A program made the translations under genes and the position numbers. A DNA stretch of 64,000 nucleotides, taken from the NCBI RefSeq assembly GCF_009914755.1, contig NC_060928.1. One strand, 5' to 3'. The DNA is from the human T2T-CHM13v2.0 reference genome, Homo sapiens. How positions within the stretch are numbered: the stretch's first letter is position 1; the number at the start of each line of letters is the position of its first letter. Below, one piece after another: positions 3,101 through 41,486 of this stretch. The notes below the pieces were generated by a model, which made no database searches, had not been told where the DNA came from, and worked only from the letters and a program-made list of their open reading frames with translations.

Positions 3101-4493
3101 ATTATTTCTATGTATAAAATATGCCCTCTCCTGCCTACTACAAAAAGGTCATAAAGTATTATGAATGTTAAGCTATTAGAATAAAAATTCATTTCAAAGT
3201 TTCCAATTTTAATTATGTATATTCCTTTCTGAAAATAGCTTATCATTAACTTATCTATTTTGCATATTAAAAATTTACAAATAACACCTGCATGCCTCTT
3301 CTCATCTTAGCCTTATGTCCACTGAGAGGTAGATAAAAACGAGAATTACCTCTCCAGTCCCAGAAAAGCAAAAAACTGAAACTCAGAATATATTGATAAT
3401 CTGATGAGATTCTAACTCTGTTTTTTGACTCATAGTTCATTATTCTATAAATTATAGAAATACCTGTATATTTCTTTAAATTGGGGCTCATCAATTAATC
3501 AAGCATTTCCAGTATCATTATTTCTAGTAATAGAGGAAATAGATGTGAGAGATTGAACTCAGCCTCACAGAATAAGAGATTTTAAAAATCAAATGCATTA
3601 CACCAACTTTTAGGTATAATATTAAGAAATATCATTTAAAAATCTTAAAACACGTAGAGTTCTATGTTTACTTTAGACATAGAATGTCATAAAAAAAGAT
3701 CTTTCCCACTATAACAATGAGAACGAACCAGACAGTCTACAAAATAATGATTTCGTTTTTCAGCTAGAGTGCTATGGTCACAAGGCAGTCTGATGATCTG
3801 CAATGCAAAGTTGACAAACTCCTCCACAGAGATGGAACACAATACTATAATACCTTGGGCAGACCAAAGAGGAAGAGATGGCCACCACAGAAGCAGGCAA
3901 GAAGAAAACAGATAAAATTTTAATTAATCTTTAAAGGCCAATTGTGACCCAATTTGAGAGTACAGAATCCTCAGAAGCCCTGGACAAAAGGGGTGTCTGC
4001 ACTGACTCTCCTACTCTTACGTAGGGCTTCCACTGACTGGCAACAAGAAAGACTGGTGGCAGGAGAGGAGACCTAAGAGAGACCTCCTCCATGATAGACG
4101 TGTGTGGATCCTCTTTTGATTTGGAAGTGGAGCAGAAGAACCCAGAGAAGTCTATCTCCAATCCAAACACTGCATAAATGCTGCTGAGAAGGACCAGAAA
4201 AGCCACACATGCCCCACCTCTACACTGATAGCAGGCAATTATTTTTTTAAATATTTTTTATTTTTAAATCTTGCCTAAGATTTAAAAATAAGGCAGGAGG
4301 TCTATAATCACTGCTTCTATTCAGCATTGTGCTAGAGTTTCTAGTCGGTTAAATAAAATAAGAAAATGATAAGTAGACACAAAATTGGGGAGCAGGGAGT
4401 AAAGCTGTTTTTATTAACAGATGATATGACCAAGTATGTAGAAATCCTGATAAATCCGAAAGAAAACTAGCAGAACTAGAAAGTGAATTTAGC

Positions 4494-4809
<316 letters not shown>

Positions 4810-6529
4810 AGAAAGTGAATTTAGCAATGTTACAGTATACAAAGTAAATTAAAAATTAATTGTAATCTACATAGTAACTGAAACAATTAGAAAAATGTAA
4901 AATCAACATTAATTATAATAGTTTCAAGACTTTGAGTATTAAGGGTAAATTTAATAAATAGCATGTAAGAACTGTACACTCAAACTATAGAACATTGCTG
5001 AGAGATTAAAGAAGGCCTAAATTAATAAAGAGATACACTATGCTCATGGATTGAAGACTTAATTTTAAGATTGTTATTCCATGTCCCTTCAATTCATATA
5101 TAGATTCAAAGTAATCCCTATTAAAATCACAGCAGGATTTTTCTGAAAATTGACAAGATAATTTAAAATTTTACCTGGACAGGCAAAAGAAACAAGAATA
5201 GCTAAAACAATCTTAAAAAGAAACAAAACTGGAAGGCATACATGACATGACTTCAAGACTTAATATAAAGCTACAGTATTAAGATAATACGGTATTAGCA
5301 AGAGGATATACAAACAGACCAATGGAACAGAACAGAGAGTACCTAAATCGACCTGCATATATAATATCAAAGACAAAGGTACCAAAGCAATTCAATGGAG
5401 AAGGAAAACTCTCCTCAACAAATGGTACTATCTTAAACCACACACACAAATCAGTTTGAGGTGGCTCATAGGTCAAAATATGTAAGCTAAAACAACAAAG
5501 CTACCGAAGAATAACTATAGAAAATATTCACAACCCTGGAACAGACAAAACAAAATCACACTATTTTAAAAATGGAAAAATTGGACTTAATCAAAAATAA
5601 AAACTGCTCATAAGAAAAGGCAAGAAAAAAGTAGGCAAGCTACAGACTGTGAGTAAATATTCACAACACATGACAAAGGACTTAAATTCAGAATATATAC
5701 AGAGTTCTGCAATTCAATAATAAAAAGACAACTCGATTTTTAAAATGGGCAAAGGACACAGATTATTCACAATAGAAAATAGACAAATAAAAAATATGCA
5801 TGTGAGAAAGTGCCTAGCATCATTAGTCATCAGGCAAGGATGTGTAAAATAAAACCCCAATGGGTAAACCCACTAACATGATTAAAATGAGATTGACAAC
5901 ATAAAATGTAGAAGAGGATGTGGAGCAACTGAAACACTCATAGATGGCTGATGAGAGTGTAAAATGGTATGTGGGAAAACTCTTTTGTTTCTTAAGTAAA
6001 CATACATCTATGCTATGATCCAGCAATTGCACAGCCAGGTATTAAAAAAATGAATACATATGCCCACACAAATATGAGTAAACAAATGCTGGTAGAAGCT
6101 TTATACTAGATAAAACCTGGAAATAAGATAGATGTTCAACAATATAATGAATTGATACACTGTGGTATAGTCAAACAATGGACTACTACTCGTTAATAAA
6201 AAGAATGAATTACTGATATATGCAAAAACATGGATAAATCTAAAAATATTATGCTAATTAAAAGCAGCAAGGCAAGAAAATATACGTACTGTAGGATTTC
6301 ATATATCAGCTATTGACTAATTCCAATCAGTGAATTAGCTTAGCCTAGGTAGATCCAATTAGCCAGTTATCTAAATAGCAACTGCTGATTCATCAAGGCT
6401 GTTCCAAAATAGTGGATGTGAGCAGCACATGCATACACCAAGAAGGAGAGCAGGGCCCTGAAATACTAACCTGGACAGAAAGCATCACGTGGCTTTACCA
6501 TCAGCTTAAACTCTCCACTATCAGGGTTT

Positions 6530-6599
6530 AGTTTTGCCTGCTTCTAAGTCCTAAACTGGCAAAAAGTTTTGCCTGCTTCTAAGTCCTAAACTGGCAAAA
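6530..6599. repeat. Perfect 35-bp tandem duplication
   Basis: agttttgcctgcttctaagtcctaaactggcaaaa x2. Confidence 0.95.
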
Positions 6600-6776
6600 C
6601 TAAACTCAGATCAGCATTTACTTCTAGAGGTAGAGAGTGGAGCAAGGGTAAATTGAGAAGGAGCCAAAGGGAACTTTCTAACGTGACGTCTACTTGCCAA
6701 AACTGACTGAAAGGCACGTTTGAGATCTGGTCATTCACTGAATATAAATTATATTTCAATCAAAAAATGAAGACAG

Positions 6777-7103
6777 GGATTGGGGCAGGGGCTCACGCCT
6801 ATAATACCAGCACTTTGGGAGGCCAAGACAGGAGGATCGCTTGAGCCCACTGGTTTGTGACCAGCCTGGGCAACACAGGGAGACCTGTCTCTACAAAAAA
6901 TTTAAAAATTAGCTGCACATGGTGGCACGCAGCTGTGGTCCCATCTACTCAGGAGGCTGAGGTGGGAGGATTACTTGAGCCCGGGAGATCGAGGCTGCAG
7001 TGAGCTATGATCGTGCCGCTGCACTCCAGCCTGGAAAACAGAGTGAGATCCTGTCTTAAAAAAAAAAAAAAAAGAAGAAGAAGAAGAAGGAGAAGGAGAA
7101 GAA
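6777..7103 (+). mobile_element. AluJ with (GAA)n/(GGAGAA) tail
   Basis: 'ggaggatcgcttgagccc', 'gaggctgcagtgagctatgatc' are J-type diagnostics; the tail has become a GAA microsatellite. Confidence 0.9.
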
Positions 7104-7270
7104 GAAGACAAGTTAAATATTCTTATCTTATCTTCTATTAGTACCTCCACATAAGCAATTTATATTATTCATGTTATGGTGCCAAATCAAATTTGAGTCA
7201 TATTCCTGAAAGGTTAAAAGCTCCTACCAAGTATTTTAAAGATACTTTCTTAATTTAAAGTTCATCTTTA

Positions 7271-7570
7271 GGCCAGGTGCAGTGGCTCATGCCTATAATC
7301 CCAGCACTTTGGGAGGCTGAGGTGGGTAGAACACTTGATCCCAGGAGTTTGAGACCAGCCTGGGAAATATGGCAAAACTCTAGCTCTACAAAAAAATTAA
7401 AAATAAAAAAATTAGCCAGGCATAGTGGCATGCATCTGTAGTCCCAGCTACTTGGAAGGCTGAAGTGGGAGGATCCCTCGAGACAGCGAGGTGGAGGTTG
7501 CATTGAGCCAGACCACACCACTGCACTCCAGCCTAGGTGACAGAATGAGACAACTACATCTTTAAAATAA
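7271..7570 (+). mobile_element. AluJ-type element
   Basis: Diverged dimeric Alu with 'cccaggagtttgagaccagcctggg'. Confidence 0.88.
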
Positions 7571-25600: not shown

Positions 25601-26677
25601 GTTTGTTTTGGATTTTTTGTTTTGTTTTGCTGTGGAAAAGCTTTTCAATTTGATGTAATCATATTTGGTTTTTTTTTGCTTTTGTTCCCTGTGCATTTGA
25701 GTCTCATCCTTGCCCAGCTCAATGCTGTGAAGCATTTTCCTTATGTTATCTTCTAGTACTTTGATAGTTTTGGATTTAAGTCATTAGTCCATTTTGAGTT
25801 TACTGTTGTACGTTAAGAGGTAGGGGTCTAGTCTCATTCTTTTTCATGTAGATATCCAATTTCCCACCACTGTGTATGGAAGAGACTATCTTTTCCCCAA
25901 TGTGTGTTCTTGGTGGCACTTTTGTTGAAAATCAGTTGGCTGTAGATGTCAGAATTTATTTCTGGGCTCTCTGTTTTGTTCCCTTGGTCTATGTGTTTGG
26001 TTTTTATGCCAGTACAATGCTGTTTTGGTTACTAAAGCTTTGTAATATATTTTTAAGTCATGTTGTGTAATGCCTCAAGCTTTGTACCTTTTACTCAAGA
26101 CTGTCTTGGCTTTTGGGGTCTCTCGTGGTTCCATAAGAATTTTAAGATATTTTTTCTATTTATGTGAAGAATATTGATATTTTCATAGGGTTGCTTCAGG
26201 TAGTATAGCCACTTTAACAATGTTAATTCTTCCAATTCATGAACATGGGATATCTTTCCATTTATTTGTGCCTTCCTCAATTTCTTTAATAAGTGTTTTG
26301 AAGTCTTCAATGAAGACATCTTTCACAACTTTGGTTTAGTTTATTTCTAGGTATCTTAATTTTTTTATAGCTATCATGGAATTGTTTCCTTGAGTTCTTT
26401 TTCAGACAGTTCACTATAATCATATAGAAATGCTACTGATTTTTGTATGTTGATTTTGTATTGTGAAACTTTACTGAATTCATTTATTAGTTCTAATATT
26501 TTTTGGTGGAGTTGTTAGAGTTTTCTATATATAAGATCATGTTGTCTTCAAACAGGAACACTTTGACCTTCTCCTTTCCAATTTGGATGCATCTTGTTTC
26601 TTTCTCTTGCTTAATTGCTTGGATGAAGACTTCTAGTATTATGTTAAAAAGAAGTGGTTAAAAAAAAGGGTATCTTT

Positions 26678-28665
<1,988 letters not shown>

Positions 28666-31153
28666 AATGGGTATCTTTGTCTTGTTTCCAATCTGAGAGG
28701 AACAGTTTGGTGTTAGCGGTGTGTTTGTCATAGATGGCCTTTATTGAGTTGAGGTACATATCTTCTATACTTAATTTGTTGAGAGTTTTTATCAGGAAAT
28801 GATGTTGAATTTTGTCAAATGCTTTTCCTAAAAATTTTGAAATTATCATACAGTTTTTGTTTTCCTTTCTGTTAATGTGGTATATCACATTTATTGATTT
28901 GCATATGTTGAACTATCCTTGCATGCCTGGGATAAATCCCACTTGATCCTACTGAATGATCTTTTTAATGTGCTGTTGGATTTAGTTTGCTAGTATATTG
29001 TTGAGAATGTTTGCATCTATGTTCGTCAAGGATATTGAATTGTAGTTTTGTTGTTGTTGTGTCCTTGTCTGTTTTGGAATCAGTAAATTGCTGGCCTCAC
29101 AAAATGAGCTTGAAAGTATTCTCTCCTCGAGTTTATAGAAGAGTTGAAGGAGCATTGGTTTTAGTTCTTTTTTAAATATTTTGCAGATTTCAGCAGTGAA
29201 GTCATCAGGTCCTGAGCTTTTCTTTGATGGAAGATTTTTTGTTACTGATTCAATTTCCTCACTCACCCTTGGTCTGTTTAGATTTTCTATATCTTCATAA
29301 TTTAAACTTGGTAGGTTGTAAATGTCTAGGAATTTATATGTTTCTTCTATATTATCAAATTTGTTGAGGTATAGTTGTTCACAGTAGTCTCTTTTGAACC
29401 TTTGTATTTCTGTGGTATCAAGTTGTAATGTCTCCTTTTTTATTTCAAATTTTATTTAGTTGAGTCTTCTCTGTCTTAGTCTGGCTAATGATTTGTCAAT
29501 ATTGGTTATGTTTCTTAAAAAAGTTCTTTGTTTCATTGATCTTTTGAATGGTTTTCAGTCTGTATTTTGTTTATTTTTGCTCTGAGATTTATTATTTCCT
29601 CCCTTCTACCAATTTTAGGTTTAGTTTTTCTTGGTGTTTTTAGGTCCTTGCAGTGCATTATCATGTTGTTTATTAAAAATCTTTCTTCCTTTTTGATGTA
29701 GGCATTTATTGCTATAAATAACTCTGATATAACTGCTTTTGCTATGTCCCGTGGGTTTTGGTATGATGTGTTTTCATTCTTGTTTGTCACAAGGTATTTT
29801 TATATTTCCCTTTTAATTTCCTCATTGATCCACTGGTTATTTAGGAGCGTGTTGACTAATGTCCATGTTTTTGTTATGTTTCTGAAGATTTTCTTGTTGA
29901 TTTCTAGCTTTCTACCACTGTGATCAGAAAAGATACTTGATGTAATTCCTATCTTCTTAAATTTGTTGAAACTTGTTTTGTAGCTTAACATATGATCTAT
30001 CCTGAAGAATGTTCCATGTGCAGATGTTGGATGGCATGTTCCATAAATGTCTTTTAGGTCCATTTGGTCTATAGTGCAGTTTAAGTCCAATGTTTCTTTA
30101 TTTTTTTATCTTAATGATCTGTCCATTGTTGAAAGTTGGGTGTTAAAGTGCTCTACTAATTTTATATTGCAGTCTATCTTTCACTTTAGATGTAATAATA
30201 TTTATATATTTAGGAGCTTTGGTGCTGGGTGAATATATATTTACAATTGTTACATCCTCTTGTTGAGTTAATCCCTTTATCATTATATAACCTTCTCTGT
30301 TTCTTTCTATAATTTTTTAATTAAAGCCTATTTTTTTACATAAGCATGGCTACTCCTGCTCAGTTTTGTTTTCCATTTTCAAAGAATATCTTTTTCTATT
30401 CCTTCACTTTCAGTCTATGTTTGTCTTTAAAAGCAAAGTGAGTACCTTATTGGCAGCATACAGTTGGGTCTTGTTTTTATGTCCATTCACTCACTCTGTA
30501 TCTTTTAATTAGGGGATTTAACCCATTTACATTCTACATTATTATTGATAGATAAGAACTTACTCCTGCAACTTTGTTCCTTGTTTTCTGATTGTTTTTT
30601 AGGCCCTCTGTTCCTCTTTTGTTGTTTACCTCTCTAGATTGGTGGTTTTTTTGTGATGCTAGGCTTTGTTTCCTTTCTCTTTCTCTTTTGTGTATTTACT
30701 ATAATTTCTTTCTTTGTGGTTACTATGGAACTAACATAAAGAGTCTTGTAGTTATAATAGCTAATTTTAAGCTGATAACATTCTTAGTTTAGTGAACATA
30801 AAAGTACTCTAGATATTTTCCCTCCATCCTACAATTTATTTTTTTTCCCTAATTTATATCTTTATGTAGTATGTGTTCCTCTGCCACTAATGGTATCTGT
30901 TGCTTTTTTTTTAACCATTTTTACTTTAAACTTTTATACTAGAACAACGAAAGATTTAGATTGCACCATTAGAGCACTGGGGTATTCTGAGCTTGATTAT
31001 GTATTTACCTCTCCTGGAGGTTTTATGCTTTCATGTGTATTCATGATAGTAATTATCATCCTCTTGTTTACAGCTGTAATATTCCCTTAAGCATTTCTTG
31101 TAAGGCTAGGCTAGTGATGAATTCCCTCAGCTTTTGCTTGTCTGGGAAGATCT

Positions 31154-31237: not shown

Positions 31238-33393
31238 GTATTCTTTACTGACAGTTGGTTTTCTTTTTTTTAGTATGTTGAATATACCATTCTCTTCTAG
31301 CCTGGATGGTTTTGGCTGAAACATCTGCTGATAATCTAGCAGGAATTTCAGTTTCTGTAACTTGATGTTTCTCTCATGCAGCTTTTAGAATTCTCTGTGT
31401 TTGACATTTGACAGTTTGATTATAAAGTACATCAGAGAAGATTTTTGCAGGTTGAATATAATTTAGAATTTTTGAAATTCCAGGATCTTGATGATCATGT
31501 CTTTCCCTAGACTTGGGAAGGTTTCAGTAATTATTTAAGAGGTTTTATGTACCCTTCTCCATTTCTTCCCCCAGCATCCCTATAATGCAAATATTAGTTC
31601 ACTTAATGATGTTCCCTAAGTCCCATAGGCTTTCTTCATTGTTTGATTCTTTTTCCTCTGGATTATTTTGAAAGCAAGTTTATAAATTTTTCTGCTTGAT
31701 TAGTCTGTTGTTGAAGCCCTCAATGGTATTTTTACTTCATTCATTGAATTCTTCAGCTCTAAGATTTCTGTGTGGTTCTTTTCCATAATATCTATCTGTT
31801 TATTGGATTTCTTGTTCAGATAATAAACTTTTTTCCTAATTTTATTGAATTCTTTGTCTATATTTTTTGTATCTCCCTGAGCTTCCTTAAGATCATTATT
31901 CTGAATTCCTTTCAGACATTTCATAAGTATCCTTTTCTTTGGGGTCTGTTACTATAGACTTATTTGTTGCATTGAGGGTGTCATATGTCCCTGCTTTTTC
32001 ATGTTTCTTAAGTCCCCACATTGATATCTGTGCATCCAATGGAGCCGTCACTTTTTCTAACTTTATGGAGTAGCTTTTGTAGGGAGAGACTTTTTCCTGC
32101 AGATGGTCAGAGTGTCAGTTGGCTATGGTGCATTGGCTTTGGTTCTGTGAGGACTCAGTAGCATCATCTCTGTGCAATTTCTTTAATTATAATCCTCCTC
32201 ATTATGTCTGTGATTGTCTCAATGGCTAAGATGTGAGAGTTTGTGATGGCAATGCCACAGTTTTGTTGGGGACACGGGCACTGGGCTGATTGTCAGGCCA
32301 AGCATGTTTACTCATAACGGATCAACAGTTTGTGCAATGGACTTTCTAAGGGTGCAGGGCTGCTGCCAGACTGACTGTCTGGAAAGGCAACAGGTGGGGT
32401 TACAAGCAAGTTCTGCAAGTCAGGTGGCTGTGGGTTGGTCTCTCCAGAGAGGCAGGGACACCACTGTTCTGGTTTTCAAGCTGGACATAGGCATACACAG
32501 CCTCAGTGGGCCAGCTGGCTATGCTATGCCAGTGTGCACAGGCGCAGCAGGTCAGCTAGCTATTAGGCAGCTTCCTTACTCTGCAGGTCTTTTCATTCCC
32601 TAGAAAGAGGTTAGGCACATGGAATTTGAAACCAAATTATCAACTGTTTTGTTGGACCTAGGCTCTGGGCAGTCAGAATTGCAGTGCTGCAGAAACCCAT
32701 GTGAATGTGGTGGAACAACTGTAGGGCCTCACAAATGGAAAGAGTCAGTGGCTACTGGCCCCTGGGGTAGGACACACTCTGGTAGTAGGTCCAGCTTCAG
32801 GATGGTGCCATTCCATAGCAACTTAAATCATAGGAAAGGAAGGTACTAAACATGGGCCCCTACCCCAAGACAATTCAGCAGCACAAACTCCTAGCAATTC
32901 TCCAAATTGGCTTCAGGTCCTGTGAGGACTGAAGGACCCTCCTGTAGTAAACTACTGGCATCTAAGGCAGTAATGAGGACCACTGAGTGGTCTCCACCTT
33001 ACTTTTTCCTTGCAAGAAGAAGTCTTCCTTGACTCTGAGCCTGTCCTAGCAGGGAAGACAGTGTATCAGAGGCAGGGTGACTCACTCACCTTTCTATGGT
33101 GCTGTCCTATACATCCATGCTCCACAGATTTTGCTGCTCCTCTGGTGCTATCCAGCAAACTTCCTCAGTCACTCCAGATGAAATATACTTGTTTATTTGT
33201 TGTTTCGGTCTCTCTTTGTGGGGAGACAAATGCCAAGCAACTCCAGTTGGCCATGCTATCACTTGCCTACGAGCTCATTTTAGAGAGAGATTGCTATCCT
33301 AACAACTCTCATTCACCTTATTGAGAGAAGGTTCCATCACACTAATTGGACAATAATTTCATATGGAACTGTATTTAGACAATGTTAATTATT

Positions 33394-33765
33394 GGCAGAC
33401 CCACCCTCAATCTGGGTAGGCACCGTCTAATCAGCTGCCAGTGTGGCCAGGATAAAAGCAGGTGGAGAAAGGTGGAAGGACTCGACTGGCTAAGTCTTCC
33501 GGCCACCACATTTCTCCCACGCTGGACACTTCCTGCCCTCAAACATCAGACTCAAAGATCTGATGTTTGTGGACTCTGGGACCTACATCAGTGATTTGCC
33601 AGGGTCTCTCAGGCCTTTGGCCACAGACAGAAGGCCGCACTGTTGGCTTCCTTATTTTTGAGGTTTTGGGACTCAGACTGGCTTCTTTGGTCCTCAGCTT
33701 ACAGATGGCCTATTGTGGGACTTCACCTTGTGTGAGTCAATACTCCTTAATAAACTCCCCTTCAT
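33394..33765 (+). mobile_element. MLT2A (probably MLT2A2) ERVL LTR fragment lacking both termini
   Basis: 'ggcagacccaccctcaatctgggtaggcacc...ataaaagcagg...tactccttaataaactcccc' matches MLT2A; the 5' TG start and the 3' 'ctaataca' end are absent. Confidence 0.9.
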
Positions 33766-36299
33766 TCCTGGGTAAGATGGCCAAATAGGAACAGCTCCAG
33801 TCTGCAGCTCCCTGTGAGACCAATGCAGAAGGTGGGTGATTTTTCCAACTGAGGTACCTGGTTCATCTCATTGGGACTGGCTACACAGTGGGTGGAGCCC
33901 AGGGAGGGCAAGCAGAAGCAGGGTAGGATGTTGCCTCACCCAGGAAGAACAAGGGGTCAGGGAACTCCCTTCCCTAGCAAAGGGAAGCCATGAGAAACTG
34001 TGCTGTGAGGGATGATGCTATCTGGCCCAGATACTATGCTTTTCCCATGGTCTTTGCAATCCACAGACCAGGAGATTCCCTTGGGTGCCTGCACCACCAG
34101 GGCCCTGGGTTTCAAGCACAAAACTGGGCGGCCATTTGGGCAGACACCGAGCTAGCTGCAGGAGTTTTTGTTCATACCCCAGTAGTGCCTGGAACATCAG
34201 CAAGACAGAACCGTTTACTCCCCTGGAAAGGGGGCTGAAGCCAGGGAGCCAAGTGGTCTTGCTCAGTGGATCCTACCCCTACAGAGCCCAACAAGCTAAG
34301 ATACACTGGCTTGAAATTCTCGCTGTCAGCACAGCACGCTGAAGTTGACCTGGGATACTAGAGCTTGGTGGGGGGAGGGGTGTCTGCCATTACTGAGGCT
34401 TGAGTAGGCATTTTCCCCTCACAGTGTAAACAAAGCTGCCCAGAAATTCAGATTGGGTGGAGGCCACCACAGCACCACAAAGCCACTGTAGCCAGACTGC
34501 CTCTCTATATTCCTCCTCCCTGGGCAGGGCATCTCTGAAAGAAAGGCAGCAGCACCAGTCAGGGTCTTAAAGATAAAATTCCCATCTCCCTGGGACAGAG
34601 CACCTGGGGGAAGGGACAGCTGTGGGCACAGCTTCAGCAGACTTAAACGTCCCTGCCTGCCAGCTCTGAAAAGAACAGCAGATCTCCCAGCACAGCACTT
34701 GAGCTCTGCTAAGGGGACAGACTGCCTCCTCAAGTGAGTCCCTGACCCCCATGCCTCCTGTCTGGGAGACACCTCCCAGTAGGGGTCAACAGACAACTCA
34801 TACAGGAGAGCTCTGACTGGCATCTGGCATGTGCCCCTCTGGGACGGAGCTTCCAGAGGAAGGAGCAGGCAGCAATCTTAGCTGTTCTGCAGCCTCTGCT
34901 GGTGATACCCAGGCAAACAGGGCCAGGAGTGGACCTCCAGCAAACTCCAGCAGGCCTGCAGAAGAGGGGCCTGACTGTTAAAAGGAAAACTAACAAACAG
35001 AAAGGAAGAGCATCAACATCGACAAAAAGGACAACCACACAAAAACCCTATCTGAAGGTCACCAACAGCAAAGAGGAAAGGTAGATAAATCCATGAAGAT
35101 GAGAAAACCAGCACAAAAAGTCTAAAAATTCCAAAAACCAGAACACCTCTTCTCCTCCAAAGGATCACAACTCCTCCCCAGCAAGGGAACAAAACTGGAC
35201 AGAGAATGAATTTAACAAATTGACAGAAGTAGGCTTCAGAAGGCGGGTAATAACAAACTCCTTGGAGCTAAAGGAGCATGTTCTAACCCAATGCAAGGAA
35301 GCTAAGAACCTTGATAAAAGGTTACAGGAATTGCTAACTAGTATAACCAGTTTAGAGAAGAACATAAATGACCTGATGGAGCTGAAAAACACAGCACAAG
35401 AACTTCGTGAAGCATACACAAGTATCAGTAGCCGAATTAATCAAGCAGAAGAAAGGACATCAGAGATTGAAGATCAATTTAATGAAATAAAGCATGAAGA
35501 CAAGATTAGAGAAGAATGAAAAGGAACAAAAAAAGCTTCCAAGAAATATGGCACTATGTGAAAAGACCAAAACTACATTTGTTTGGTGCACCTGAAAGTG
35601 ACAGGAAGAATGGAATCAAGTTGGAAAACACTCTTCAGGATATTATCCAGGAGAACTTCCCCAACCTAGCAAGACAGGCCAACATTCAAAATCAGGAAAT
35701 ACAGAGAACACCACAAAGATATTTCTCGAGAAGAGCAATCCCAAGACACATAATTGTCAGATTCACCAAAGTTGAAATGAAGGAAAAAATGTTAAGGGCA
35801 GCCAGAGAGAAAGGTCGGGTTACCTACAAAGGGAAGCCCATCAGACTAACAGCAGATCTCTCTGCAGAAACCCTACGAGCCAGAAGAGAGTGGGGGCCAA
35901 TATTCAACGTTCTTAAATAAAATAATTTTCAACCCAGAATTTCATATCCAGCCAAACCGTGCTTCATAAGTGAAGGAGAAATAAAACCCTTTACAGACAA
36001 GCAAATGTTGAGAGATTTTGTCACCACCAGGCCTGCCTTACAAGAGCTCCTGAAGGAAGCACTAAATATGGAAAGGAAAACTGGTACCAGCCACTGCAAA
36101 CACATACCACAATGTAAAGACCATCAACATTGCCTCTCAGGGCAGCGGGGGGCAAGGGGAGGGATAACGTTAGGGGAAATACCTAATGTAGATGATGGGT
36201 TGATGGGTGCAGCAAACCACCATGGCACATGTATACATATATAACAAACCTGCACATTCTGCACGTTTCCCAGAACTTAAAGTATAATAATTAAATAAA
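33765..36299 (+). mobile_element. L1PA7-like element: full 5'UTR, disrupted ORF1, ORF2 deleted, 3'UTR end and A-tail
   Basis: 5' end 'aagatggccaaataggaacagctcc'; ORF1 fragments at 35220-36115; at ~36131 it jumps to the G-rich 3'UTR 'ggggcaaggggagggata...cctaatgtagatga'. Confidence 0.93.
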
Positions 36300-36319
36300 A
36301 GAAAATGTGAATTATTATA

Positions 36320-36685
36320 AGTAAATGCTGAAGTAAAATTAAATAACAAATATTAGGACTTCAAAGAAAGTGTTTGGTCAGAGCTGATCAACGTGAAGAG
36401 CAGGAAGAAATACCAGTACATAGCAATGTGATATAGAGAAAATCAGCAAAACTAAAAGTTGGCTTTTAAAAGAAGAAGAAAATAAAGTTGAGAGTACTTC
36501 AGCAAAATTCTCCAAAGAGAAAGAGGAGAAAGGGGTGAAAAGTGAGAGAGATAGAGAGCAAGTACCTAAATAATCAATATCAAGAATAAAGAGATATCAC
36601 TACAGATGTTATTATTAACAACTTTATAGCAATACTTTTGACAATTTAAACATATCTTTATAAACACTTACTCAACTGATAGAAG
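36320..36685 (+). mobile_element. Very old L1M ORF2 fragment
   Basis: 'gagaaaatcagcaaaactaaaagttggctttt', 'gatatcactacagat' resemble KINxxKSWFFE / DITTD coding sequence. Confidence 0.6.
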
Positions 36686-36686
36686 A

Positions 36687-41486
<4,800 letters not shown>

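What the first reader, a model, noticed from the sequence alone, without database searches (positions are those of the whole stretch)
33377..36316. ERVL LTR (MLT2A)-L1 chimera inserted as a single TSD-flanked unit
Seen: agacaatgttaattatt (33377-33393) lies immediately before the MLT2A fragment and agaaaatgtgaattatt (36300-36316) immediately after the L1 A-tail (15/17 identical), at a TTT/AG site resembling the L1 endonuclease consensus. The LTR lacks both of its own ends, and its missing 3' part does not reappear after the L1, so the L1 does not look like an in-situ insertion into an LTR. Inference: one RNA containing ~370 nt of MLT2A followed by an L1PA7-like element was retrotransposed here, i.e. 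a 5' transduction from a source L1 sitting in an MLT2A LTR. Established: MLT2A LTRs act as promoters in early human embryos. Caveat: the fragment begins ~55 nt upstream of the LTR TATA-like 'ataaaa', so it did not start at the canonical LTR TSS and an upstream start with 5' truncation is implied. A new copy would therefore carry an LTR core promoter in front of the L1 promoter. If there are sibling copies, this is an unannotated composite retroelement family.
Basis: partly seen in the sequence, partly recalled or inferred. Interest (0 to 1): 0.85.

Follow-up and report, generated by a model that had tools for sequence, protein, structure and literature searches.

The report
LTR fragment fused to ORF2-less L1
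One old L1-driven insertion in an intron of human IQCM carries a 370-base piece of an ERV-L-type LTR fused to the very start of an L1 that lacks its second gene; it is a single dead copy of an already described kind of chimeric insertion, not a new element family.

Summary
The 17-mers at 33377-33393 and 36300-36316 match 15/17. One lies exactly where LTR homology starts; the other directly follows the L1 A-rich tail. The target reads TATTT|AGA(A/C)AA.

The LTR piece (33394-33765) is internal. It lacks about 119 nt at its 5' end and about 52 nt at its 3' end, and neither missing part occurs elsewhere in the 64 kb. The L1 begins at 33764, about 2-3 nt short of the terminus seen in other copies, and shares an 'AT' with the LTR piece.

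After ORF1, at 36119-36131, it jumps to the last ~170 nt of the 3'UTR.

One target-primed insertion of a chimeric template is therefore well supported. How the two parts were joined is open:
- 5' transduction from a lost source L1 nested in such an LTR (about 0.45)
- RNA recombination or template switching (about 0.40)

T2T-CHM13 shows no sibling, source locus or shared deletion junction, so the composite-family idea is not supported. L1 5' transductions and L1 chimeras are both in print. This is a new member of a known kind, of low to moderate interest. The primate empty-site test could not be run here.

The parts
33372..33376 (+). TATTT just before the 5' repeat. With the repeat's AGA(A/C)AA it gives a TT|AGAA-type target, resembling the L1 endonuclease nick site (bottom strand TTCT/AAAT).
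   Evidence: Sequence read. The resemblance to the endonuclease consensus is recalled knowledge, not a tool result.
33377..33393 (.). 5' copy of the 17-bp target site duplication (AGACAATGTTAATTATT).
   Evidence: (D11), 15, 16: 15/17 match to 36300-36316. It abuts the first base of LTR homology.
33394..33765 (+). It covers about positions 120-491 of ~543-nt full copies. It holds TCTAATCA (33427-33434), ATAAAA (33452-33457) and AATAAA (33749-33754), and ends at ...CCCCTTCAT.
   Evidence: 83-86% identity to 29 full genomic copies by BLAST. Homology limits are 33394-33396 and 33765 in 29/29. Full copies run on 119 nt upstream and 52 nt downstream.
33537..33572 (+). Hairpin inside the LTR fragment: 14-nt arms, 13/14 complementary, 8-nt loop. 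It was created by a cluster of about 6 changes (33558-33572) that the 32 other copies lack, except one change shared with L032.
   Evidence: I7; alignment block.
33764..33765 (+). Two bases (AT) that could belong to either partner. The LTR copies read ...TTCAT and the L1 copies read G-G-ATTCC...
33764..35092 (+). L1 5'UTR. It starts ATTCCTGGGT, about 2-3 nt (the terminal Gs) short of the terminus seen in other copies. The AAGATGGCC word is at 33774-33782.
   Evidence: 14 of 29 other copies read GATTCC... preceded by unrelated flanks; colinear with two full-length copies from their first bases.
35093..36118 (+). Decayed L1 ORF1, with 17 stops in the frame read from 35093. The RRM-like domain is at about 35564-35857 and the C-terminal dsRBD-like domain runs to about 36058. 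The stop-codon region is at 36115-36117.
   Evidence: translation. Pfam PF02994 E 5.6e-57; PF17490 E 1.6e-26.
36119..36131 (+). Internal deletion junction. About 3.9 kb is missing (the inter-ORF spacer from about 12 nt after ORF1, all of ORF2 and most of the 3'UTR). The breakpoints lie in an imperfect ~12-nt repeat (GACCATTGACAC versus GACTATCACACAC in full copies).
   Evidence: unique in T2T-CHM13, none of the 39 other scored hits crosses it.
36132..36299 (+). Last ~160 nt of the L1 3'UTR, ending in a short A-rich tail remnant (36290-36299, 7 of 10 bases are A).
   Evidence: 87-90% identity to the 3' ends of two full-length copies.
36300..36316 (.). 3' copy of the 17-bp target site duplication (AGAAAATGTGAATTATT).

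Best explanation
A single L1 target-primed reverse transcription event, probably some tens of millions of years ago, inserted one continuous cDNA into an intron of IQCM, antisense to the gene. The cDNA consisted of 370 nt of the interior of an ERV-L-type LTR followed directly by an L1 that starts at its natural 5' end.

Shown:
- one 17-bp duplication encloses the pair;
- the target looks like an L1 endonuclease site;
- there is one A-rich tail;
- both parts lie in the same orientation;
- the LTR piece is internal and its missing ends are absent from the window.

Inferred, as the most likely way the parts were joined: 5' transduction. A source L1 had inserted into such an LTR just after ...CCCCTTCAT. 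That point is 17 nt downstream of the LTR's TT|AATAAA, the spacing expected if AATAAACTCCCCTTCAT was the source's own target duplication. A transcript that began upstream of the L1 (not at the LTR's presumed TATA-directed start, which lies about 85 nt inside the fragment) ran through the L1 to its polyadenylation site. Reverse transcription stopped 370 nt into the LTR.

The copy lacks ORF2, either from an internal template jump during the same reverse transcription or from a later deletion between two similar 12-mers. It left no descendants. The source locus was lost or never fixed.
For: - Single-event insertion. The 17-mers match 15/17 at the two outer boundaries. The chance rate for such a match is 6 in 2,000,000 random 17-mer pairs from this window.
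- LTR boundaries. LTR homology starts at 33394-33396 in 29/29 copies. The LTR ends are missing and found nowhere else in 64 kb.
- Age consistency. Two mismatches in 17 (12%) fit the 13% pairwise divergence of the L1 from two other copies, so the repeat is about as old as the L1.
- 5' completeness. L1 homology begins at 33763/33764, at the ATTCC that follows the terminal Gs in 14 of 29 other full-length copies. 5' transduction predicts this by definition.
- Source-site geometry. The LTR breakpoint lies 17 nt after TT|AATAAA.
- Precedent. Genuine L1 5' transductions with identified source loci exist in human populations, and one source at 8q21.11 gave 20, all of them 5' (1000 Genomes long-read preprint, passages seen).
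Against: - No locus in T2T-CHM13 joins this LTR to an L1 at this point. BLAST-type searches across the junction gave only hits to one half or the other (40-41 matches listed each time, from 3471-7278 first-look candidates of which 40 were scored).
- A 34-mer with up to 3 mismatches hit only itself. A 24-mer with up to 3 mismatches gave 5 other hits; BLAST against the element showed only the short pattern match for two and nothing for three. A gapped pattern gave 6 other hits, none a junction (one checked by BLAST, five judged from the matched strings).
- After about 13% divergence a source could escape the pattern searches, though hardly the BLAST searches.
- The fragment starts 58 nt upstream of the ATAAAA word, so the LTR's own presumed start was not used.
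- There is no microhomology at the 5' end of the fragment, which is unusual if reverse transcription simply stopped short.
- A second discontinuity in the same element (the ORF2 deletion) and the 2-nt overlap at the junction fit template switching at least as well.
- The orthologous empty site was not examined.
Confidence: 0.45

Rival explanations
1. Same single insertion event, but the two parts came from two separate RNAs. The L1 reverse transcriptase, on reaching the 5' end of the L1 RNA, jumped onto an LTR-containing RNA. Alternatively, the two RNAs were ligated or trans-spliced beforehand. This is how U6/L1 and mRNA/L1 chimeras are thought to arise. The ORF2 gap would be a first jump in the same jump-prone reverse transcription.
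For: - No source locus with the junction is in T2T-CHM13.
- Law & Burns found 17 chimeras with mRNA or lncRNA pieces 5' of mostly near-full-length L1s, some joined within the first ten L1 bases. Their highlighted donor gene (MAP3K13) holds no full-length L1 of that subfamily, and they propose RNA recombination (preprint section 24).
- There are two discontinuities in one element, both at short homologies: AT at 33764-33765, and an imperfect 12-mer at 36119-36131.
- The LTR piece ends at a CA 9-10 nt after AATAAA, where the LTR's own cleavage site could lie (the placement of the site is inference).
- The nearest LTR copy (L032, chromosome 2) has no L1 in it.
Against: - Classic template-switch chimeras involve abundant small RNAs and strongly 5'-truncated L1s (preprint section 20).
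- No A-run lies between the LTR piece and the L1, so a polyadenylated donor is excluded.
- L032 is not a convincing donor: SH-aLRT is 85, and it shares 4 rare variants where unrelated pairs share 4-5.
- A search for retrocopies ending at that presumed cleavage site gave 2 uninformative hits.
- The absence of a 30-40-Myr-old, possibly never-fixed source is weak evidence.
Confidence: 0.4
2. Nesting in place. An old, already truncated LTR sat here; an L1 inserted into it and deleted the LTR's 3' part. The 17-mer repeat is a coincidence.
For: L1 insertions with target-site deletions are known (recalled). The orthologous site was not examined.
Against: - A 15/17 match occurs in 6 of 2,000,000 random 17-mer pairs from this window. 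Here both copies sit exactly at the outer boundaries.
- There is no duplication at the L1's own 5' end.
- The LTR's 5' truncation would have to coincide by chance with the repeat.
- The repeat's divergence matches the age of the L1.
Confidence: 0.03
3. Two successive retro-insertions. First came a retrocopy of an RNA that ended at the LTR's polyadenylation site. Then an L1 inserted into that retrocopy's A-tail.
For: The LTR piece ends about 10 nt after AATAAA. L1 endonuclease favours A-tails (recalled).
Against: - No A-run lies between the LTR piece and the L1; the sequence reads CCCCTTCATTCCTGGG.
- Only one tail and one pair of repeats are present.
- An insertion into an A-tail would leave A-rich duplications on both sides of the L1.
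Confidence: 0.03

Closest known systems
L1 5' transduction, as in polymorphic human insertions traced to source loci (for example the 8q21.11 source in the 1000 Genomes long-read study)
   Same: Extra non-L1 sequence lies between the 5' target duplication and a 5'-complete L1. Both are in the same orientation, with one tail and one duplication.
   Different: No source locus can be shown here. The carried piece is itself a repeat (an LTR interior), so it cannot be mapped to a unique origin. The L1 lacks ORF2.
mRNA/lncRNA-L1 5' chimeras and other L1 chimeras catalogued by Law & Burns (bioRxiv 10.1101/2025.02.02.635956; Cell Genomics 2026, PMC13174262)
   Same: The architecture is the same: a 14-17-bp duplication, an endonuclease motif, a tail, a sense-oriented 5' piece, and an L1 joined within its first ten bases. 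The source gene highlighted there (MAP3K13) lacks a full-length L1 of that subfamily.
   Different: Their 5' pieces are first exons ending at splice donors. Here the piece is an LTR interior that ends 10 nt after a polyadenylation signal and starts upstream of the presumed LTR start site. Their four readable supplementary tables hold no MLT2A or ERVL entry; a few rows list LTR-internal scraps as extra parts.
U6/L1 and other small-RNA/L1 chimeric retrogenes (Buzdin and colleagues; recalled, and summarised in Law & Burns section 20)
   Same: Two unrelated RNA copies are fused head to tail inside one duplication with one tail.
   Different: In those the L1 part is strongly 5'-truncated and the partner is an abundant small RNA, usually full length.
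SVA subfamily carrying MAST2 exon 1 (a family founded by 5' transduction; recalled, no paper seen here)
   Different: That family has many copies. Here no second copy was found.

Membership tests
Endonuclease-dependent L1 (TPRT) insertion | Target site duplication of about 7-20 bp flanking the whole insert | tested here: met
   The duplication is 17 bp and matches 15/17 at both outer boundaries. The chance rate is 6 in 2,000,000 pairs.
Endonuclease-dependent L1 (TPRT) insertion | Insertion at a TT|AAAA-like site, with an L1 3' end plus A-tail next to the 3' duplication | tested here: met
   The target reads TATTT|AGA(A/C)AA. L1 3'UTR homology runs to about 36289, followed by an A-rich 10-mer. 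The endonuclease consensus itself is recalled.
L1 5' transduction | Non-L1 sequence between the 5' duplication and an L1 that reaches its natural 5' end, colinear and in sense | tested here: met
   LTR piece 33394-33765. The L1 starts at 33764 at ATTCC, 2-3 nt short of the terminus seen in 14 of 29 other copies.
L1 5' transduction | A source locus where the same L1 lineage adjoins the same flanking sequence | tested here: not met
   No junction-spanning match in T2T-CHM13. Only the best 40 candidates are scored per BLAST-type search. Other primates and other human haplotypes were not searched.
L1 5' transduction | An empty orthologous site lacking both parts | not testable with these tools
   No primate genomes or multi-species alignments are available. 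The immediate flanks are unique, so there is no paralogous empty site either.
Template-switch or RNA-ligation chimeric retrogene (U6/L1 type) | Two unrelated RNA-derived parts in one duplication with one tail | tested here: met
Template-switch or RNA-ligation chimeric retrogene (U6/L1 type) | The 5' partner is a copy of a discrete RNA with defined ends, and the donor locus is separate from any L1 | tested here: inconclusive
   The 3' end lies 9-10 nt after AATAAA at a CA. The 5' end is not at a known start site. The nearest LTR copy, L032, has no L1 but is not a significant sister. The retrocopy pattern search was uninformative.
Template-switch or RNA-ligation chimeric retrogene (U6/L1 type) | The L1 part is 5'-truncated at an arbitrary internal point | tested here: not met
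   The L1 is complete to within 2-3 nt of its 5' end. The mRNA/L1 class of Law & Burns shares this departure.
   Only the window's own copy was found. The ORF2 deletion junction is also unique.
   No Dfam or RepeatMasker library is available. What is shown is this. The fragment belongs to a repeat with 4920 first-look candidates whose full copies are ~543-nt units with AATAAA near the 3' end. The L1 carries Pfam L1 ORF1 domains and is 86-87% identical to two full-length copies.

The most novel reading that the evidence does not exclude
The LTR piece is a copy of a discrete LTR-derived RNA whose 3' end is the LTR's own cleavage site (a CA 9-10 nt after AATAAA, with no A-tail). It was picked up by an end-to-end template jump when the L1 reverse transcriptase ran off the 5' end of an L1 RNA. 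The same jump-prone reverse transcription had already skipped ORF2 at a 12-nt homology. That would make it an LTR counterpart of the U6/L1 and free-exon/L1 chimeras. It would also be a fossil of the route by which L1 could sample foreign promoter-bearing sequence in front of its own 5'UTR.
Probability: 0.15. Interest if true: 0.55.

Novelty: new member of a known kind. Interest (0 to 1): 0.25.

Why it matters
L1 lineages have repeatedly replaced their 5'UTRs, and chimeric insertions are the proposed route (Law & Burns, preprint section 34).

This locus shows that an LTR segment can be placed directly in front of an intact L1 5' end in one event. The segment carries the family's TATA-like word and a TCTAATCA word. 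The LTR family is one that DUX4 opens in 4-8-cell embryos (PMC6341076, passages seen).

It is an illustration rather than a discovery. The copy had no ORF2, left no offspring, and belongs to classes already in print. Its practical value is as a test case for pipelines that look for repeat-derived 5' partners of L1. The published tables I could read do not list this LTR family by name.

Tried and rejected
- Sibling or source search in the window's own assembly. Three BLAST-type queries across the junction, two exact-stretch patterns with up to 3 mismatches (the 5 extra hits showed no homology to the element beyond the short pattern match) and one gapped pattern (6 extra hits, one checked, five judged by eye) found only the window's own locus.
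- Siblings sharing the ORF2 deletion: none among the 39 other scored hits.
- Donor LTR by tree and rare-variant sharing. The tree of the fragment plus 32 copies is star-like. The chromosome 2 copy L032 is nearest (SH-aLRT 85, 4 shared rare columns), but other unrelated pairs share 4-5, so no donor can be named. These 32 are the best-matching copies the searches returned, out of 4920 first-look candidates.
- Paralogous empty site. The flanks 33255-33393 and 36300-36430 are unique. 33130-33254 is an old repeat that ends before the site.
- Retrocopies ending at the presumed LTR cleavage site: 2 hits, neither informative, against 5 hits for the control.
- Published catalogue. There is no MLT2A, MLT2, ERVL or IQCM entry in the four readable supplementary tables of PMC13174262. 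No row starts with the digits I guessed for the hg38 position, but that position is a rough recollection, so this is weak. The PDF supplements and the preprint's supplements could not be read.
- Full-text search for MLT2A + LINE-1 + 'chimeric insertion': 0 papers.
- Considered and rejected: nesting in place with a chance repeat; two successive retro-insertions (no A-run at the junction); twin priming (both parts are in sense); and the idea that the neighbouring inverted L1 ORF2 segment at 36687-39534 is this element's missing ORF2. That segment is joined to its own inverted piece at 39594-41486, which overlaps this L1 in element coordinates, and it lies outside the duplication.


Full report
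**What is there.** The window is human T2T-CHM13 chromosome 4, in an intron of IQCM (hub annotation; one search gives the place). Read left to right, the stretch is:
- TATTT;
- a 17-mer, AGACAATGTTAATTATT (33377-33393);
- 372 bases of an LTR-type repeat (33394-33765);
- an L1 that starts ATTCCTGGGTAAGATGGCC at 33764 and ends in a short A-rich run at 36290-36299;
- a second 17-mer, AGAAAATGTGAATTATT (36300-36316).

**The repeat is real and well placed.** The two 17-mers match at 15 of 17 positions.
- On the + strand they are the only two places in the 64 kb within 2 mismatches of the 3' copy. Only 6 of 2,000,000 random pairs of 17-mers from this window match as well.
- With up to 3 mismatches on both strands there are 3 matches, against 1.2 expected. 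The force of the observation therefore lies in the exact placement, not in the genome-wide rarity of the word.
- Two mismatches in 17 (12%) agree with the 13% divergence of the L1 from two other copies. The repeat is about as old as the L1.

**The LTR piece.**
- A search of the whole assembly with 33394-33790 gave 4920 first-look candidates, of which 40 were scored. I fetched 29 of them with flanks.
- In 29 of 29, homology to the window starts at 33394-33396 and ends at 33765, although the query offered 144 more bases upstream.
- The same copies resemble each other for a further ~119 nt upstream and ~52 nt downstream. Full units are therefore about 543 nt, and the window holds only about positions 120-491.
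- Running these 29 full units against the whole window gives one HSP each, always at 33394-33765. The missing ends are nowhere in the 64 kb.
- The piece carries TCTAATCA (33427-33434; present in 23 of 32 other copies), ATAAAA (33452-33457) and AATAAA (33749-33754).
- I did not test the name MLT2A, because no repeat library is available.

**The L1.**
- Thirty loci were fetched with a junction query. One is the window itself. Of the 29 others, 14 read GATTCC(T/C)... directly preceded by unrelated sequence, which marks the element's 5' terminus.
- The window's L1 starts at the A of ATTCC, so it lacks only the 2-3 terminal Gs. The two bases AT (33764-33765) fit both partners.
- Against two full-length copies, the L1 is colinear from its first bases to 36124-36129 and then resumes in the last ~160-170 nt of the 3'UTR.
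- Pfam finds the L1 ORF1 RRM-like and C-terminal domains up to about 36058. The frame read from 35093 has 17 stops.
- All of ORF2 is therefore missing, about 3.9 kb. The breakpoints lie within an imperfect 12-nt repeat that full copies carry just after ORF1 and in the 3'UTR.
No other L1 in the assembly shares it: none of the 39 other scored hits crosses it.

**One event or two.** The outer boundaries of the pair carry the duplication. The L1's own 5' end has none. There is one tail, both parts are in sense, and the LTR's missing 3' part does not follow the L1.
- Nesting in place would need a 15/17 coincidence at two exact boundaries plus a target deletion. I put it at about 3%.
- A retrocopy of an LTR-terminated RNA, later hit by an L1 in its A-tail, would leave A-runs at the LTR/L1 junction. 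The sequence there is CCCCTTCATTCCTGGG. I put this at about 3%.

**How the parts were joined.** Two readings remain, and I cannot separate them.
- *5' transduction.* It explains the natural L1 5' end by definition. The LTR breakpoint is 17 nt after the LTR's TT|AATAAA, so a source L1 with an ordinary 17-bp duplication would sit exactly there. 5' transductions with known sources are documented in human populations.
- *Against it.* No source or sibling is in T2T-CHM13. The fragment begins 58 nt upstream of the ATAAAA word, so the LTR's presumed start site was not used.
- *RNA recombination or template switching.* It needs no source. It is what Law & Burns propose for structurally similar chimeras whose highlighted donor gene holds no matching L1. 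It would tie together the two discontinuities in this element, both at short homologies. It also gives meaning to the LTR piece ending at a CA 9-10 nt after AATAAA.
- *Against it.* No A-tail lies at the junction. No convincing donor LTR exists: the tree is star-like, the nearest copy L032 has SH-aLRT 85, and it shares 4 rare variants where unrelated pairs share 4-5. The classic chimeras also behave differently, with truncated L1s and small-RNA partners.
- *My odds.* 0.45 for transduction and 0.40 for recombination.

**No family.** Every junction search returned only the window's own locus. With ORF2 absent and ORF1 decayed, this copy could not have propagated itself.

**Known or new.** Chimeric L1 insertions and L1 5' transductions are described and catalogued.
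- Law & Burns: I read the preprint outline and sections 8, 9, 20, 21, 24 and 34. For the PMC version I saw passages and searched four supplementary tables.
- 1000 Genomes long-read preprint: passages only.
- The readable tables have no MLT2A or ERVL row. A full-text search for MLT2A, LINE-1 and 'chimeric insertion' together found no paper. This partner type may therefore be unlisted, but the architecture is not new.
- That the LTR family is opened by DUX4 at the 4-8-cell stage is in print for MLT2A1 (PMC6341076, passages).
- The following are recalled, not seen here: the endonuclease consensus; twin priming; the age estimate of tens of millions of years, which rests on recalled substitution rates and L1 subfamily ages; the MAST2-SVA family; U6/L1 ligation; and short template-switch mutations.

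**Left open.** The primate empty-site test, the subfamily names and the timing of the ORF2 deletion all need data that are not available here.

Noticed in passing
window 33537-33572: Inside the LTR piece, about 6 changes clustered in 33558-33572 are absent from the 32 other copies, except one shared with L032. They turn the stretch into the reverse complement of 33537-33550, giving a hairpin with 14-nt arms (13/14 paired). This looks like a short templated (snap-back) mutation cluster. It also accounts for part of the fragment's long branch (0.11 against a median of 0.07).
   Followed up: partly
window 36687-39534 (-) and 39594-41486 (+): A second L1, about 370 nt beyond the 3' duplication. 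An ORF2 segment on the minus strand is joined to an inverted 5' piece at adjacent element coordinates (3318/3326 of the reference copy), as in twin priming. It lacks its last ~565 nt and its tail. It is not the missing ORF2 of the studied element.
   Followed up: partly
window 26675-28653: Another L1 3' part (26808-28653, +) with a small inverted piece (26675-26809, -) at its 5' side. This is again a twin-priming-like arrangement.
   Followed up: no
window 33130-33254: An old interspersed repeat (22 other genomic matches at 75-82% identity) that ends about 120 nt before the insertion site. The sequence from 33255 to the duplication is unique in the assembly.
   Followed up: no
window 33381-33389 versus the absent upstream part of the LTR: The duplication holds AATGTTAAT. 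This is the reverse complement of ATTAACATT, which full LTR copies carry about 22-30 nt upstream of the point where the window's fragment begins. It is probably chance.
   Followed up: no
window 28713-30550 (-): A much older L1 ORF2 remnant (66% identity to the reference copy), lying between the younger L1s. The intron is a dense L1 landing zone.
   Followed up: no
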